Assembly (NCBI GenBank): GCA_002792535.1
Contig: PFOM01000036.1
Location: 11,936 to 75,935 of the forward strand
DNA: 64,000 nucleotides
From: Candidatus Peregrinibacteria bacterium CG_4_10_14_0_2_um_filter_38_24
GTDB lineage: Bacteria; Patescibacteriota; Gracilibacteria; UBA1369; LOWO2-01-FULL-3
Reading direction: 5' to 3'
The translations under genes and the position numbers were made by a program. This document shows, piece after piece, positions 45,913 to 48,840 of the stretch (the first letter of the stretch is position 1; each line of letters starts with the position of its first letter). The notes beneath the pieces were generated by a model, which saw nothing but the letters and a program-made list of their open reading frames with translations, had not been told where the DNA came from and did not search any database.

Positions 45913-45941
45913 TTGACTTTCCGCTCAAGAATTGCTAAGAT
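45913..45941 (+). promoter_or_regulatory. Candidate promoter for the HTH-GHKL/DUF4325 pair (TTGACT-N17-TAAGAT)
   Basis: Hexamers at 45913-45918 and 45936-45941. Followed by short repeats (AGATTTTAG twice, and TAGTA-N5-TACTA) before the ATG at 45978. Confidence 0.3.
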
Positions 45942-45977
45942 TTTAGTAGGTTTTACTAGATTTTAGCAGATTACGTA

Positions 45978-46730
45978 ATGACAGAACAAAAAATGTTATC
46001 CATAGGTGAAACAGCAAAAATACTCGGAGTATCGATTGAAAATCTCAGGAATTGGGATAAAAACGGCATACTTCCATCTTTTCGCCCATCTCCATCAAGC
46101 AAACGCTATTATCGCCGAGAAGATATAGAAAATTTCTTAAAAAAAGACACCAAAATCGAAGAGGAAAACATCGCAAACTTGGCAAAAGAATGGGCAATAA
46201 GTAAGACTCCAGCCTCAATCCCAGCATCTTTTTATTGTGAGACCAATGACGTTTTTTCCGCCCGCTTGCAAAGTTTGAGCATACTACTTGAACGCTTACC
46301 GGAACTAAAAGAAATTTTTCCTTTGATCATCGCAATCATAGGAGAAATTGGAAACAACTCATACAATCATAACATCGGCAATTGGCCGGATGTACCGGGA
46401 ATTTTTTTTACCTACAGTCTTGATAAACGCCAAATAATCCTTGCTGACCGCGGACGGGGAATTTTAAAAACATTGCAACGCGTCGTACCAAACCTTAAAA
46501 CAGACAAAGAAGCACTCAATATAGCATTTACAAAATACATTTCCGGTCGCGCACCGGAAAATCGAGGAAATGGCTTAAAATTCGTCAAAGATGTAATCTC
46601 CGAAAATCCATTCCGGCTACAATTTTACACAGGAAACGCCGAAACGGAACTCAAGCAAAACACAACCAAATTAAATATCAAAACTCTGGATACAAAATTC
46701 CACGGATGCATCGCAATAATTCAATATTAA
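45978..46730 (+). CDS. MerR-type HTH domain fused to an RsbW/SpoIIAB-like GHKL (histidine-kinase-like) ATPase domain
   Basis: N-terminal HTH MLSIGETAKILGVSIENLRNWDKNGILPSFRPSPSSKRYYRREDIENFL. The C-terminal domain has an N-box-like GEIGNNSYNHN, a G1-like LADRGRGI and a G2-like ENRGNGLKFV. Confidence 0.65.
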   Translation: MTEQKMLSIGETAKILGVSIENLRNWDKNGILPSFRPSPSSKRYYRREDIENFLKKDTKIEEENIANLAKEWAISKTPASIPASFYCETNDVFSARLQSLSILLERLPELKEIFPLIIAIIGEIGNNSYNHNIGNWPDVPGIFFTYSLDKRQIILADRGRGILKTLQRVVPNLKTDKEALNIAFTKYISGRAPENRGNGLKFVKDVISENPFRLQFYTGNAETELKQNTTKLNIKTLDTKFHGCIAIIQY

Positions 46731-46740
46731 CCCTCTCAAT

Positions 46741-47016
46741 ATGAAAATATATTTAAAAAAATTTGGCACCACATTAATCTCCAGACCTGCGGGCAAAGAA
46801 GCCTTTTTAGCGCTTCAGCCCTCAATAAACGAAACACCGACAGATAGAAAAATCGAAATAGATTTTGAAGGGGTTTCAGTCCTCACTCCATCTTGGGCGG
46901 ATGAATTTATCACACCCCTGTCAAATCAACACAACGTAACTTTATTAAACACCGAGAATCCTTCAGTCAAAGCCACTTTGGAAACATTGAAAAAATCACA
47001 AGAGCCTCAATCCTAA
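46741..47016 (+). CDS. STAS-like DUF4325 domain protein
   Basis: A 91-aa protein with the DUF4325 pattern (ISRPAGKEAF...KIEIDFEGVSVLTPSWADEFITPL). Starts 10 nt after the upstream gene. Confidence 0.6.
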   Translation: MKIYLKKFGTTLISRPAGKEAFLALQPSINETPTDRKIEIDFEGVSVLTPSWADEFITPLSNQHNVTLLNTENPSVKATLETLKKSQEPQS

Positions 47017-47034: not shown

Positions 47035-47064
47035 TTGCCAAATCTGCATTTAGCACTGTATAAT
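47035..47064 (+). promoter_or_regulatory. Candidate hrcA promoter (TTGCCA-N18-TATAAT) overlapping CIRCE
   Basis: Hexamers at 47035-47040 and 47059-47064. Confidence 0.5.
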
Positions 47065-47076
47065 CGCAACTGCTAA
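47050..47076 (+). promoter_or_regulatory. CIRCE-like HrcA operator (TTAGCACTG-N9-AACTGCTAA)
   Basis: Matches 8/9 and 7/9 positions of the TTAGCACTC-N9-GAGTGCTAA consensus. Lies 22 nt upstream of hrcA. Confidence 0.65.
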
Positions 47077-47097: not shown

Positions 47098-47814
47098 ATG
47101 TCGGAAGATCGCAAAAAACAAGTACTACAAGCCATTATCAATCATTTCATTCAAACAGCTGAACCTGTCGGATCCAACACGATTTTGATAAGTTACAAAT
47201 TTCACGTGTCTCCTGCAACTATCAGAAATGACATGATGGAACTCGAAAACGAGGGATATATTTCACAACCACACACTTCCGCAGGAAGAGTCCCAACAGA
47301 CAAAGCATACCGACTTTTTGTAGATGAAATGGCCGACTACGACAAAGCACGCAAGGAAGCCCTAAAAGCACTCGCACTTATTCAAGGAAAATACGCCGCA
47401 GAGAAAGTTAGAGAAAATCTTCACGACGCAGTTTCAGTGCTTTCCAGAGCCACAAATCAAGTAAGCTTTTCTACAACTCCAGACAATCCACGAACATTTT
47501 TCTTAGGAATGAGCAACGCATTTTTACAACCAGAATTTGCAAACAATCCAGTAAGCGCCAGCGAAGTTTTCGAGGTTTTAGAAAGAAGCGATAAATTCGT
47601 AAAAACACTCGCAAACCTCGATGTTTCAGATGAAATAAAAGTATACATCGGAGACGAAAATATCATTCCACAAGCGCAATCTTGCAGTATTATCGTCACA
47701 AAATATCATAAAAACGGATACAATGGATTCATGGGAATCCTCGGCCCAAAACGCATGAACTATGCATTTAATATCGTGATTTTGGAAGAAATAAAAAAAC
47801 TTTTAGAACAATAA
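47098..47814 (+). CDS. hrcA: Heat-inducible transcription repressor HrcA (short form)
   Basis: Winged-helix N-terminus EPVGSNTILISYKFHVSPATIRNDMMELENEGYISQPHTSAGRVPTDKAYRLFVDEM. At 238 aa it is shorter than the ~340-aa HrcA I remember. Confidence 0.88.
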   Translation: MSEDRKKQVLQAIINHFIQTAEPVGSNTILISYKFHVSPATIRNDMMELENEGYISQPHTSAGRVPTDKAYRLFVDEMADYDKARKEALKALALIQGKYAAEKVRENLHDAVSVLSRATNQVSFSTTPDNPRTFFLGMSNAFLQPEFANNPVSASEVFEVLERSDKFVKTLANLDVSDEIKVYIGDENIIPQAQSCSIIVTKYHKNGYNGFMGILGPKRMNYAFNIVILEEIKKLLEQ

Positions 47815-48422: not shown

Positions 48423-48773
48423 GTGGCCTATTTGGATTTGTCGGAAGCCACGCCTCAAACGCCACAAAAACCGATTTTATTCGGATCTCAATACCAAGCA
48501 AAAAAACCAATACTAATCCCCGGATTAAATATAGACATTAAAGGAGGAGAAACATTTAAACTAATTACAATGACAGAGGTGACAGGAAGCGGCTGTGTCG
48601 GAACACTTGAAATAACAGACGCAAATGGAGAAAAACGCACAACAGGAGAAATTTATATTCCAAACGCTCTGGGAGATCCGGACACATCGGAAAGAATTCA
48701 AGATAAAGCCCCTCAGGCCACAGCACAAAACACACACGACAGATTCGAAGCAGTCGAAGCAGTCGGAGCATAA
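48423..48773 (+). CDS. Hypothetical protein inserted between grpE and dnaK (weak call)
   Basis: A 116-aa ORF with a GTG start and no recognisable family. Two antisense ORFs of similar length compete with it, so coding status is uncertain. Confidence 0.3.
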   Translation: MAYLDLSEATPQTPQKPILFGSQYQAKKPILIPGLNIDIKGGETFKLITMTEVTGSGCVGTLEITDANGEKRTTGEIYIPNALGDPDTSERIQDKAPQATAQNTHDRFEAVEAVGA

Positions 48774-48799: not shown

Positions 48800-48828
48800 T
48801 TGACCAACACTTATTAGCACTCTATAAT
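48800..48828 (+). promoter_or_regulatory. Near-consensus dnaK promoter (TTGACC-N17-TATAAT)
   Basis: Hexamers at 48800-48805 and 48823-48828. The -10 element sits inside the CIRCE spacer. Confidence 0.6.
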
Positions 48829-48840
48829 TACGAGTGCTAA
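48814..48840 (+). promoter_or_regulatory. Perfect-consensus CIRCE operator (TTAGCACTC-N9-GAGTGCTAA)
   Basis: Read directly: TTAGCACTC tataattac GAGTGCTAA, 47 nt upstream of the dnaK ATG. Confidence 0.9.

What the first reader, a model, noticed from the sequence alone, without database searches (positions are those of the whole stretch)
45913..47016. MerR-HTH fused to an RsbW/SpoIIAB-like GHKL ATPase, paired with a STAS-like DUF4325 protein: an uncharacterised partner-switching-like module just upstream of hrcA-grpE-dnaK
Seen in sequence:
- ORF 45978-46730 starts with a clear MerR/excisionase-type HTH (IGETAKILGVSIENLRNWDKNGIL...RYYRREDIENFL).
- It ends with a small GHKL ATPase fold with N-box-like (GEIGNNSYNHN), G1-like (DRGRGI) and G2-like (NRGNGLKF) elements.
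- 10 nt later comes a 91-aa protein with the DUF4325/STAS-like pattern (IDFEGVSVLTPSWADEF). The Ser in TPSW sits where SpoIIAA/RsbV-type STAS antagonists are phosphorylated.

Established knowledge: a GHKL serine kinase plus a STAS antagonist is the core of partner-switching circuits that normally control a sigma factor.

Inference: here the kinase-like protein carries its own DNA-binding domain, so the module could be a self-contained transcription switch. Alternatively, it could be a conflict or defence sensor, since I recall ATPase plus DUF4325 pairs occurring in variable genome regions. I know of no characterised example of this fusion.
Basis: partly seen in the sequence, partly recalled or inferred. 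Interest (0 to 1): 0.7.

Follow-up and report, generated by a model that had tools for sequence, protein, structure and literature searches.

The report
DNA-binding kinase-like switch with STAS partner
Two adjacent genes widespread in the tiny "candidate phyla radiation" bacteria encode a DNA-binding protein fused to a kinase-like ATP-binding domain and a small partner protein. The pair probably forms a self-regulating genetic switch of a kind that has not been studied.

Summary
ORF 45978-46730 has an excisionase/BldC-type MerR helix-turn-helix (residues 6-56). The rest of the protein is a very divergent domain that only structure prediction and transitive profile matches place in the GHKL (Bergerat) ATPase/kinase superfamily. 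Its N-box, G1 and G2 motifs are invariant. ORF 46741-47016 is a DUF4325 protein with a STAS-like fold (best meaningful match RsbS) and an invariant Ser51.

The pair is adjacent in 83 of 83 testable related loci, co-diverges, and occurs in at least 568 species-level genomes, almost all Patescibacteria. No other neighbour is conserved. hrcA-grpE-dnaK lies next to it in only 4-5 of 81 loci and has its own CIRCE operators, so the heat-shock link is incidental.

Upstream of nearly every copy lie 2-5 phased head-to-tail repeats (TGYATAGRTTT; three at 45938-45972 here) over the promoter. These are a likely autoregulatory operator.

HTH-less versions, GHKL-DUF4325 fusions, prophage "moron" copies and the N-terminal part of a DISARM DrmA profile show that GHKL+DUF4325 is a wider, uncharacterised module.

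Best reading: an autoregulated, ATP-dependent switch that resembles partner-switching circuits. Phosphorylation of Ser51 and any output beyond its own promoter are unproven. It is a new variant of a known kind.

The parts
45913..45941 (+). Promoter-like site of the two-gene operon: -35 TTGACT, 17-nt spacer, TG-extended -10 TAAGAT
   Evidence: The consensus scan scores it 9 of 12, with a TG before the -10. By itself this is weak evidence. In related loci, TTGACA and TATAAT-like boxes sit in the same place among the repeats.
45938..45972 (+). Three head-to-tail direct repeats with a 10-nt period (AGATTTTAGTAGGTT / AGGTTTTACTAGATT / AGATTTTAGCAGATT); putative operator of the HTH
   Evidence: the repeat finder family D1. 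The motif is unique to this site in the window. In 81 related loci, the core TAGRTT occurs at 14.1 per kb in the 120 nt upstream on the gene strand. That compares with 0.45 per kb in the background and 0.6 per kb on the opposite strand. Spacings cluster at 10, 20-21 and 30-31 nt.
45978..46730 (+). Gene for the 250-aa HTH-GHKL fusion protein (alternative start at 45993)
   Evidence: ORF. It has 1626 homologues at E<=1e-3, named only as MerR/HTH/excisionase-family or hypothetical proteins of Patescibacteria. The AF2 model has pLDDT 88.6 and pTM 0.80.
45993..46145 (+). N-terminal winged HTH, residues 6-56, MerR-like of the HTH_17/excisionase/BldC type (no coiled-coil follows)
   Evidence: Pfam MerR_1, MerR and HTH_17. 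PDB profile hits include BldC (6ama, 6amk). Viral Foldseek hits to Excise, AlpA, TorI and PrtN proteins have rmsd about 2 A.
46146..46316 (+). Helical N-terminal extension of the core domain, residues 57-113 (invariant W72, F93; near-invariant Y86, C87, R96, L97); retained in HTH-less relatives
   Evidence: Alignment A1. The ~195-aa HTH-less relatives begin at this helix.
46317..46727 (+). GHKL (Bergerat-fold) ATP-binding domain, residues 114-250. N-box is 46341-46373, G1 is 46443-46460, the ATP lid is about 46461-46562, and G2 is 46563-46586
   Evidence: The top Foldseek PDB hits with E<=1e-3 are all GHKL ATPases: ASFV topo II and TRAP1 (Hsp90), followed by GyrB/ParE and other Hsp90 structures. 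BmrR matches to the HTH appear only lower in the list. E123, N127, H131, D157, G159, G161, G199 and L200 are invariant. Residues 98-244 match phrog_3364 at E 2.3e-11. Other proteins that match phrog_3364, or are similar to them, score on HATPase_c or HATPase_c_2.
46741..47016 (+). Gene for the 91-aa DUF4325 (STAS-like) partner. The invariant P50-S51-W52 is at 46888-46896, with the Ser51 codon at 46891-46893
   Evidence: Pfam DUF4325. The AF2 model has pLDDT 92.4 and a beta-alpha-beta-alpha-beta-alpha topology. Foldseek matches RsbS 6jhk (prob 0.99, TM 0.63) and the Listeria stressosome 7b0u (rmsd 2.7 A). Ser51 is present in 82 of 82 loci. The gene is adjacent to the GHKL gene in 83 of 83 testable loci.

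Best explanation
This is an autonomous, autoregulated two-gene module. The first protein is a one-component regulator. Its BldC/excisionase-type HTH binds as head-to-tail multimers to helically phased direct repeats (TGYATAGRTTT; here three copies at 45938-45972). These repeats overlap or abut the operon's own promoter, so binding represses it.

The C-terminal domain of the same protein is a stand-alone GHKL ATP-binding domain of the kinase/anti-sigma type. The small STAS-like DUF4325 protein, which is translationally coupled to it, is its dedicated binding partner. By analogy with RsbT-RsbS and SpoIIAB-SpoIIAA, DUF4325 is probably also its substrate, at the invariant Ser51.

On this reading, the nucleotide state (ATP/ADP) and/or the phosphorylation state of DUF4325 decides whether the partner is bound. 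That in turn changes the ability of the HTH-GHKL protein to oligomerise on the repeats. The module would thus be a partner-switching circuit whose output is DNA binding rather than release of a sigma factor.

What is shown:
- domain folds and motifs;
- strict pairing and co-divergence of the two genes;
- existence of fused GHKL-DUF4325 proteins;
- the conserved phased repeats at the promoter.

What is inferred:
- that the HTH binds those repeats;
- that the two proteins bind each other;
- ATP dependence;
- phosphotransfer to Ser51;
- the direction of the regulation.
For: **Domains**
- HTH.
- GHKL by fold.
- GHKL motifs are invariant from the Patescibacteria family out to plasmid and phage relatives.
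- There is a transitive sequence link. The window protein matches phrog_3364 at E 2.3e-11. The Nostoc protein matches phrog_3364 at E 3e-37 and scores above the Pfam threshold on HATPase_c.
- A Streptococcus prophage relative scores E 2e-5 on the RsbW-type model HATPase_c_2.
- The partner has a STAS-like fold closest to RsbS, a natural substrate of a GHKL serine kinase.
- Ser51 is invariant in 82 of 82 loci and lies at the N-terminus of helix 50-63 in the model.

**Pairing**
- The genes are adjacent on the same strand in 83 of 83 testable loci, with gaps of -40 to +53 nt in all but one.
- HTH-less relatives show the same pairing with 4-nt overlaps; a third overlaps by 11 nt.
- The distance matrices of the two proteins correlate at r=0.71, against a permutation maximum of 0.13.
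- Single polypeptides exist that carry HATPase_c plus DUF4325. There are 64 cluster representatives, some named by IMG as 'anti-sigma regulatory factor (Ser/Thr protein kinase)/anti-anti-sigma regulatory factor'.

**Operator**
- The repeat core is enriched 32-fold, is strand-specific, and is phased at 10, 21 and 31 nt. It lies over -35/-10-like boxes across 81 otherwise unrelated promoters.
- BldC, a structural relative of this HTH, binds direct repeats as head-to-tail multimers (PMC5859096).

**Autonomy**
- No third gene is conserved.
- No other phased sites were found in about 1 Mb of flanking DNA or in the 64-kb window.
Against: - No profile search places the window protein itself significantly in any HATPase family. 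Only 2 of 39 family members touch HATPase_c_2, at E 0.12.
- The best fold matches are topoisomerase, GyrB and Hsp90 ATPases, not RsbW or SpoIIAB. The kinase assignment therefore rests on domain size, the NSxxH form of the N-box, and relatives.
- No PP2C-type phosphatase or other third gene is linked. A reversible phosphorylation cycle is therefore not supported by gene context.
- One database homologue (P0189) has Ala in place of Ser51.
- The only detectable target is the module's own promoter, so what the 'switch' controls is unknown.
- Protein-protein contact could not be modelled with the tools available.
Confidence: 0.45

Rival explanations
1. This is a conflict or defence (toxin-antitoxin-like or infection-sensing) module. 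The GHKL domain is a sensor or effector kinase that acts on a host or phage target. DUF4325 is its inhibitor or pseudo-substrate. The HTH only provides the autorepression typical of such cassettes.
For: - The wider GHKL+DUF4325 superfamily sits in typical accessory or 'moron' positions.
  - In a Streptococcus prophage it lies between the lysis genes and paratox.
  - In a Dehalobacter prophage it lies directly after the holin/M23 cassette.
  - In Gordonia phage Phishy it lies between the tail genes and the integrase.
  - It also occurs on plasmids of Nostoc and Alicyclobacillus.
- These relatives match positions 24-395 of a PADLOC DrmA (DISARM) model at E 9e-37 and 5e-22.
- DUF4325 genes have been reported coupled to a VapC-like PIN group (PMC5499597) and next to the CI repressor of a Francisella prophage (PMC7924643).
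- The Patescibacteria pair is a compact autoregulated operon with variable neighbours. These include PIN/MazE, HepT/MNT, HicB, Fic, GIY-YIG, DUF4143 ATPases and transposases in some loci.
- One genome bin carries two copies.
Against: - No recognisable toxin or effector domain is present.
- The window proteins match nothing in PADLOC except through the HTH.
- Only 1 of 2.9 million viral contigs carries the Patescibacteria form.
- In the window, and in the closest relative whose upstream flank is known (L006, 88% identical), the pair sits between GAPDH and hrcA. Similarity falls off roughly with taxonomy, which looks more vertical than mobile.
- I found no actual DrmA protein with this N-terminus.
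Confidence: 0.3
2. This is an ATP-dependent regulator without phosphotransfer. The GHKL domain acts as a nucleotide-driven dimerisation clamp or ligand sensor that sets the spacing or oligomeric state of the HTHs. DUF4325 is a non-phosphorylated co-regulator, and its Ser51 is structural (a helix N-cap).
For: - The best fold matches are clamp-type GHL ATPases.
- No phosphatase is linked.
- One homologue has Ala at position 51.
- PSW[GA]DEF is a whole conserved surface, not only the Ser.
Against: - There is no transducer domain with the catalytic Lys that GHL ATPases need. The domain ends at residue 250.
- The N-box has the NSxxH form seen in kinase and anti-sigma GHKL proteins. This comparison rests on my own knowledge of SpoIIAB and histidine kinases.
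- Relatives carry a STAS domain and match HATPase_c_2.
Confidence: 0.15
3. This is an anti-sigma factor module. The GHKL domain sequesters a sigma factor as RsbW and SpoIIAB do, and DUF4325 is the anti-anti-sigma.
For: - IMG names fused relatives as anti-sigma/anti-anti-sigma factors.
- A gene for a 'sigma factor-like HTH' protein precedes the pair on the Alicyclobacillus plasmid.
Against: - No sigma-factor gene is conserved near the pair in 81 loci.
- The protein has its own DNA-binding domain and operator, which gives it a direct output.
Confidence: 0.05
4. This is a heat-shock regulator (HspR-like MerR protein) of the adjacent hrcA-grpE-dnaK genes.
For: - It lies immediately upstream of hrcA.
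- There is a weak NCBIfam hit to HspR over the HTH, at E 0.004 and far below the cut-off.
Against: - hrcA, grpE or dnaK is nearby in only 4-5 of 81 loci.
- hrcA and dnaK each have their own promoter-embedded CIRCE element, at 47050-47076 and 48814-48840.
- The repeat motif is absent from those promoters.
Confidence: 0.02

Closest known systems
RsbT-RsbS, RsbW-RsbV and SpoIIAB-SpoIIAA partner-switching pairs (GHKL serine kinase plus STAS protein)
   Same: - A small stand-alone GHKL domain with N, G1 and G2 boxes.
- It is encoded next to a small STAS-fold protein.
- That protein carries a conserved Ser at the start of a helix.
- The genes are tightly coupled.
   Different: - There is no significant sequence match to HATPase_c_2 or STAS for the window proteins.
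- No sigma factor or PP2C phosphatase is linked.
- The kinase-like protein carries its own HTH and has its own operator.
- The STAS-like partner is a shortened version (3 strands, 3 helices).
BldC (Streptomyces) and lambda Xis-type MerR-like/excisionase HTH proteins
   Same: - A short MerR-like winged HTH without a coiled-coil.
- The predicted operator consists of phased head-to-tail direct repeats, variable in number.
   Different: - BldC and Xis are proteins of about 70 aa with no sensor domain. Here the HTH is fused to a ~190-aa ATP-binding domain.
- DNA binding has not been demonstrated.
Classical MerR-family regulators (MerR, CueR, BmrR, HspR)
   Same: The N-terminal HTH matches the Pfam MerR and MerR_1 models.
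   Different: - There is no long dimerisation helix.
- The operator is made of direct repeats at or after the -10, not a palindrome inside a 19-20-bp spacer.
- The effector domain is a GHKL fold.
phrog_3364 / phrog_5816 proteins of temperate phages and plasmids ('ATPase-like ATP-binding protein' plus DUF4325, or fused 'DUF4325 domain-containing protein'), and the N-terminal region of PADLOC DrmA model PDLC02567
   Same: - The GHKL domain is homologous (E 2.3e-11 to phrog_3364).
- The partnership with DUF4325 is the same, either as a downstream gene or as a fusion.
   Different: - Those proteins carry an N-terminal STAS-like region instead of an HTH.
- They lie in prophage ends or on plasmids.
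- They too have no known function.

Membership tests
GHKL (Bergerat-fold) ATPase/kinase superfamily | Bergerat alpha/beta sandwich fold | tested here: met
   The AF2 model has pLDDT 88.6. All eight Foldseek PDB hits with E<=1e-3 are GHKL ATPase domains (ASFV topo II, TRAP1), at E down to 7e-4 and prob 0.96-1.0. The next hits are GyrB/ParE and Hsp90. Viral hits include rIIA-like proteins and topo II.
GHKL (Bergerat-fold) ATPase/kinase superfamily | N-box (ExxxN), G1 (DxGxG) and G2 (GxGL) nucleotide-binding motifs | tested here: met
   E123, N127, D157, G159, G161, G199 and L200 are invariant in 39 family members. They are also invariant in an alignment with HTH-less, plasmid and fused relatives.
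GHKL (Bergerat-fold) ATPase/kinase superfamily | Significant match to a HATPase_c-type profile | tested here: inconclusive
   The window protein has no hit. The link is transitive only. The window protein matches phrog_3364 at E 2.3e-11. The Nostoc protein, which also matches phrog_3364, scores 28.2 bits on HATPase_c, above the 26.4-bit cut-off. HTH-less member P0304 scores E 0.0047 on HATPase_c.
GHKL (Bergerat-fold) ATPase/kinase superfamily | ATP binding or hydrolysis | not testable with these tools
   Needs biochemistry.
RsbW/SpoIIAB/RsbT-type anti-sigma serine kinases | Match to HATPase_c_2 (PF13581) | tested here: inconclusive
   Two of 39 family members score E 0.12. A Streptococcus prophage relative scores E 2e-5, at 25.1 bits, just below the 27.4-bit cut-off. 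hhalign against my recalled SpoIIAB sequence aligned only the G1 box and was not significant.
RsbW/SpoIIAB/RsbT-type anti-sigma serine kinases | Adjacent STAS-type antagonist or substrate gene | tested here: met
   A DUF4325 gene is adjacent in 83 of 83 testable loci. Its fold is closest to RsbS.
RsbW/SpoIIAB/RsbT-type anti-sigma serine kinases | Linked sigma factor and PP2C phosphatase | tested here: not met
   No third gene family recurs in more than 7 of 81 loci. None of the eight recurrent neighbour families I annotated is a sigma factor or a phosphatase. The rest of the genome was not available.
RsbW/SpoIIAB/RsbT-type anti-sigma serine kinases | Phosphorylates the conserved Ser of the STAS partner | not testable with these tools
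   Only the conservation of Ser51 (82 of 82 loci) could be shown.
STAS-domain anti-sigma antagonists (SpoIIAA/RsbV/RsbS) | STAS fold | tested here: met
   Foldseek matches RsbS 6jhk (prob 0.99, TMq 0.63), the stressosome 7b0u (rmsd 2.7 A), and SLC26 STAS domains lower in the list. E-values are weak (0.04) because the protein is small. Pfam itself describes DUF4325 as STAS-like.
STAS-domain anti-sigma antagonists (SpoIIAA/RsbV/RsbS) | Match to Pfam STAS/STAS_2, and a DSSG-type phospho-site at the N-terminus of helix 2 | tested here: inconclusive
   There is no STAS or STAS_2 hit. Ser51 sits at the N-terminus of helix 50-63 in the model, but in a PSW context, and no structural superposition was available. 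hhalign against my recalled SpoIIAA sequence was not significant.
Classical MerR-family regulators | Long C-terminal coiled-coil dimerisation helix after the winged HTH | tested here: not met
   In the model, the HTH (helices 9-16, 20-28, 47-54) is followed by short helices at 62-74 and 90-105 that belong to the GHKL module. HTH-less relatives keep those helices.
Classical MerR-family regulators | Palindromic operator within an overlong -35/-10 spacer | tested here: not met
   The operator candidates are strand-specific direct repeats. In the window, the spacer is 17 nt.
BldC-like / excisionase-type HTH regulators | MerR-like HTH lacking the coiled-coil, binding phased direct repeats head-to-tail | tested here: met
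   BldC structures are among the PDB profile hits. Excisionase, AlpA and TorI are fold hits. The phased direct repeats are conserved. Binding itself is inferred. The BldC mode of binding is described in PMC5859096.
Known anti-phage defence systems (PADLOC 2.0) | Match of either protein to a defence-system model | tested here: not met
   Only the HTH matches, to mad1 and to a methyltransferase HTH. The DUF4325 protein has no hit. More distant relatives match the N-terminal part of a DrmA model.

The most novel reading that the evidence does not exclude
GHKL plus DUF4325 is an unrecognised, widespread sensor/kinase module of phage-host conflict. It occurs in prophage moron regions, on plasmids, and at the N-terminus of some DISARM DrmA helicases. 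The Patescibacteria version has been captured as a one-component transcription factor. It would be a partner-switching circuit that reads an infection or energy signal and outputs directly to DNA without any sigma factor. That would make it one of the few lineage-wide signal-responsive regulators in these minimal genomes.
Probability: 0.25. Interest if true: 0.8.

Novelty: new variant of a known kind. Interest (0 to 1): 0.62.

Why it matters
Patescibacteria have very small genomes and few recognisable regulators. A sensor-regulator pair conserved in hundreds of their species is therefore a good candidate for how they sense energy state, stress or infection.

Mechanistically, it would extend partner switching from sigma-factor control to direct, oligomerisation-based DNA binding. 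Partner switching pairs a GHKL kinase with a STAS protein.

It also gives DUF4325 a concrete, testable role. DUF4325 is a domain of unknown function found in phages and plasmids and represented in the N-terminal part of a DISARM DrmA profile. The proposed role is as dedicated partner or substrate of a divergent GHKL kinase. The short operator motif and the invariant Ser51 make the hypothesis directly testable in vitro and in a heterologous host.

Tried and rejected
- **Sequence-only placement of the C-terminal domain found nothing.** I tried Pfam, NCBIfam and PADLOC, phmmer and profile searches of PDB sequences, and hhalign against SpoIIAB and SpoIIAA sequences that I recalled from memory. In the hhalign runs, only the G1 box and a C-terminal stretch aligned, without significance.
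- **Heat-shock role rejected.** hrcA, grpE or dnaK is adjacent in only 4-5 of 81 loci, and those genes have their own CIRCE operators.
- **Search for a regulon found nothing.** No further exact motif matches occur in the 64-kb window, and 1-mismatch matches are at chance level. No phased consensus pairs occur outside the module's own promoter in about 1 Mb of related loci. Whole genomes could not be scanned.
- **Phage-borne origin of the Patescibacteria form rejected.** There is only one hit in IMG/VR.
- **Search for an actual DrmA protein carrying the GHKL+DUF4325 N-terminus failed.** The homologue search with the Nostoc fusion returned only proteins of about 240-470 aa, and the literature search was empty. 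The DrmA link therefore rests on HMM coordinates alone.
- **Literature searches found no functional study.** I searched for DUF4325, STAS-like with GHKL, and HTH-RsbW fusions.
Full report

Yes. ORF 45978-46730 (+, 250 aa) is followed after 10 nt by ORF 46741-47016 (+, 91 aa).
- Pfam places MerR_1, MerR and HTH_17 on residues 6-56 of the first protein.
- Pfam places DUF4325 ('STAS-like domain of unknown function') on the second, above the curated cut-off.
In a 39-sequence alignment that reaches down to 49% identity, they are the most conserved parts of the protein: GEIGNNSxxHN, ADRGxG and RAPExRGNGLKFV.
- The flanking genes are GAPDH upstream and HrcA, GrpE, an unknown 116-aa ORF and DnaK downstream.

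**2. The C-terminal domain is a GHKL domain, but a very divergent one.**

Sequence methods alone fail.
- Pfam, NCBIfam and PADLOC give no hit.
- PDB sequences give no hit, either with the single protein or with profiles of the full protein and of the domain.
- Only 2 of 39 family members touch HATPase_c_2, at E 0.12.

Structure prediction does place it.
- The AlphaFold2 model built from the family alignment is confident (pLDDT 88.6, pTM 0.80).
- All eight of its Foldseek PDB matches with E<=1e-3 are Bergerat-fold ATPases (ASFV topoisomerase II and TRAP1/Hsp90), with prob 0.96-1.0. GyrB/ParE and further Hsp90 structures follow.
- Against viral models, the best matches are rIIA-like proteins and topo II.

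A sequence bridge also exists.
- Residues 98-244 match PHROG family phrog_3364 at E 2.3e-11.
- Plasmid proteins from Nostoc and Alicyclobacillus match the same family at E 3e-37 and 3e-27.
- The Nostoc protein scores above the Pfam threshold on HATPase_c.
- A Streptococcus prophage protein, found by similarity to the Nostoc protein, scores E 2e-5 on the RsbW-type model HATPase_c_2.
- In a joint alignment, the N-box Glu, Asn and His, the G1 DxGxGI and the G2 GxGL are the only invariant columns apart from one C-terminal Gly.

The domain is about 165 residues and has no transducer or His-phosphotransfer domain. Together with the 'NSxxH' form of the N-box, this resembles the kinase/anti-sigma branch of the superfamily. 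That comparison rests on my own knowledge of SpoIIAB and histidine kinases. The sub-family assignment is not proven.

**3. The partner is STAS-like.**
- The DUF4325 model (pLDDT 92.4) is a compact beta-alpha-beta-alpha-beta-alpha fold.
- Its best meaningful matches are B. subtilis RsbS (prob 0.99, TM 0.63) and the Listeria stressosome (rmsd 2.7 A). SLC26 STAS domains appear lower in the list.
- RsbS is the natural substrate of the GHKL kinase RsbT.
- The motif [ST]-P-S-W-[GA]-D-E-F opens helix 50-63. Ser51, Pro50 and Asp54 are present in 82 of 82 non-redundant loci, including HTH-less ones.
- One database homologue (P0189) has Ala at position 51.

**4. The two genes form one unit, and nothing else is linked.**
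- The first protein has 1626 homologues and the second 1820. All named ones are from Patescibacteria.
They span Peregrinibacteria, Gracilibacteria, many Parcubacteria and Microgenomates lineages, Doudnabacteria, and bins labelled Saccharibacteria.
- A few copies lie on very long contigs labelled Bacteroidota or Fibrobacterota. I did not check these.
- In 83 of 83 loci where the contig continues, a DUF4325 gene follows on the same strand. The gaps are -40 to +53 nt, with a single exception of 225 nt.
- The pairwise distances of the two proteins correlate at r=0.71, against a permutation maximum of 0.13.
- Clustering all neighbouring ORFs of 81 loci found no third family in more than 7 loci. HrcA, GrpE and DnaK occur in only 4-5 loci, which are the closest relatives of the window plus one other.
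- Recurrent but rare neighbours are a mixture of housekeeping genes (ABC-F, YchF) and accessory genes (DUF4143 ATPase, DUF3892, GIY-YIG, Fic, TrmB-like).
- hrcA and dnaK in the window each have their own CIRCE element with a TATAAT in the spacer. The hrcA copy at 47050-47076 has 3 mismatches to the consensus, and the dnaK copy at 48814-48840 is perfect.
- The heat-shock neighbourhood is therefore incidental.

**5. A conserved operator.**
- The 110 nt upstream of almost every copy contain 2-5 copies of an 11-nt element with consensus T-G-Y-A-T-A-G-R-T-T-T. Lineage variants include TTTACCTAGATTT in Peregrinibacteria and TGAGTAGATTT or TGGGTAGATTT elsewhere.
- The core TAGRTT occurs at 14.1 per kb in the upstream 120 nt on the gene strand. 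That compares with 0.45 per kb in the rest of the loci and 0.6 per kb on the opposite strand.
- Spacings pile up at 10, 20-21 and 30-31 nt.
- The repeats overlap TTGACA and TATAAT-like boxes.
- In the window, three copies with a 10-nt period (45938-45972) start at the -10 of a TTGACT-17-TGnTAAGAT promoter-like site and run to within 5 nt of the start codon.
- The HTH lacks the MerR coiled-coil.
- Its PDB profile hits include BldC, and its fold hits include excisionase, AlpA and TorI proteins.
- BldC binds direct repeats as head-to-tail cooperative multimers (PMC5859096).
- The natural reading is autorepression by multimerisation on the repeats.
- I found no other phased sites in the 64-kb window or in about 1 Mb of related loci. 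The only visible target is the module itself, but whole genomes were not scanned.

**6. The wider family.**
- A profile of the C-terminal domain finds only 525 clusters (at the 50% level) among 1.84 billion representative proteins.
- Besides the ~245-aa HTH form, there is a ~195-aa HTH-less form that starts at the helix preceding the GHKL core. Rare forms carry another N-terminus: an ArsR-like wHTH or a cytidylyltransferase.
- Two of the three HTH-less members I examined have a DUF4325 gene overlapping by 4 nt, and the third overlaps by 11 nt.
- More distant relatives (phrog_3364) carry an N-terminal STAS-like region. Gordonia phage Phishy gp32 matches Pfam STAS above threshold.
- These relatives are followed by DUF4325 or fused to it. 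The fused form has 64 cluster representatives of about 414 aa from Cyanobacteria, Chloroflexota, Chlorobi, Dehalobacter and sphingomonads. IMG names some of them 'anti-sigma regulatory factor (Ser/Thr protein kinase)/anti-anti-sigma regulatory factor'.
- They sit in classic prophage accessory positions:
  - after the lysis genes and before paratox in Streptococcus phages;
  - after the holin/M23 cassette in Dehalobacter;
  - between the tail genes and the integrase in Phishy.
- The Nostoc and Alicyclobacillus plasmid copies also match positions 24-395 of a 1750-position PADLOC DrmA (DISARM) model, at E 9e-37, 5e-22 and 2e-4. This implies that some DrmA proteins carry the module at their N-terminus. 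I could not retrieve such a protein.
- The Patescibacteria form itself is almost absent from viral contigs, with 1 hit.

**7. Interpretation.**

Shown:
- an HTH of the BldC/excisionase type fused to a GHKL ATP-binding domain;
- an obligate STAS-like partner with an invariant Ser;
- fusion proteins that argue for direct interaction;
- a conserved, phased direct-repeat element at the promoter;
- no other linked gene.

Inferred:
- the protein represses its own operon by oligomerising on the repeats;
- the GHKL domain binds ATP and the partner;
- the partner, possibly through phosphorylation of Ser51, toggles DNA binding.

I give this about 0.45 as a whole. By component:
- domain assignments, about 0.9;
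- autoregulation through the repeats, about 0.75;
- direct GHKL-DUF4325 interaction, about 0.7;
- Ser51 phosphorylation, about 0.35.

The main rival (0.3) is that the cassette is a conflict or defence module like its prophage relatives, with the HTH only providing TA-style autorepression. The two readings are not mutually exclusive.

Remaining alternatives:
- A non-kinase ATP clamp (0.15) and a true anti-sigma function (0.05) remain possible.
- A heat-shock role is effectively excluded.

**8. Novelty.**

I found no paper describing the pair, the fusion, or DUF4325 function. The components are known kinds: a GHKL kinase-like domain, a STAS partner and a BldC-like HTH. The combination, and the direct DNA-binding output, are new. 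The family is large and nearly confined to Patescibacteria. I therefore class it as a new variant of a known kind, with interest 0.62.

Noticed in passing
window 48814-48840 and 47050-47076: There are two CIRCE (HrcA operator) elements. A perfect TTAGCACTC-N9-GAGTGCTAA lies just upstream of dnaK, and a copy with 3 mismatches lies upstream of hrcA. Each has TATAAT inside the 9-nt spacer. So hrcA-grpE and dnaK appear to be separately HrcA-controlled transcription units (the hrcA promoter scores 11 of 12).
   Followed up: partly
window 47098-47814: HrcA is only 238 aa. My recollection is that the usual length is about 340 aa. It still matches both the HrcA DNA-binding and C-terminal Pfam models.
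   Followed up: no
window 48423-48773: A 116-aa ORF sits between grpE and dnaK and has no Pfam match. The perfect CIRCE lies directly after it.
   Followed up: no
L097 3013-4202 (Streptococcus phage phiGBSVK-D); L098 2414-3265 (Gordonia phage Phishy gp32); L099/L100 9001-10263 (Dehalobacter): Relatives of the GHKL+DUF4325 module occupy prophage 'moron' positions: after the lysis genes and next to paratox; between the tail genes and the integrase; and after a holin/M23 cassette. Phishy gp32 is STAS plus HATPase_c in one protein. These are candidates for a prophage-encoded defence or exclusion function.
   Followed up: partly
L094 1914-3158 (Nostoc plasmid pANSO36B); L095 540-1748 (Alicyclobacillus plasmid pAACI02): These GHKL/DUF4325 proteins match positions 24-395 of PADLOC DrmA model PDLC02567 (1750 positions). 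This suggests that a subset of DISARM DrmA helicases carries this module at the N-terminus. I could not retrieve an actual example.
   Followed up: partly
L048 and L078 (both from assembly CAZWLI01): One genome bin carries two copies of the pair, 84% identical in the GHKL protein. They could be paralogues or strain variants within the bin.
   Followed up: no
L071, L076, L018: Copies of the HTH-GHKL/DUF4325 pair lie on very long contigs (0.4-1.6 Mb) labelled Prolixibacteraceae, Saprospiraceae and Fibrobacterota. L071 and L076 lack the TGYATAGRTTT repeats upstream. This could reflect horizontal transfer outside Patescibacteria or mislabelled bins.
   Followed up: no
L001 5114-5739; L002 880-1692; L086 1564-1896: Toxin-antitoxin genes lie close to the pair in several loci: PIN/MazE directly upstream, MNT/HepT about 4 kb upstream, and a HicB-like gene directly downstream. 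Enrichment was not tested.
   Followed up: no
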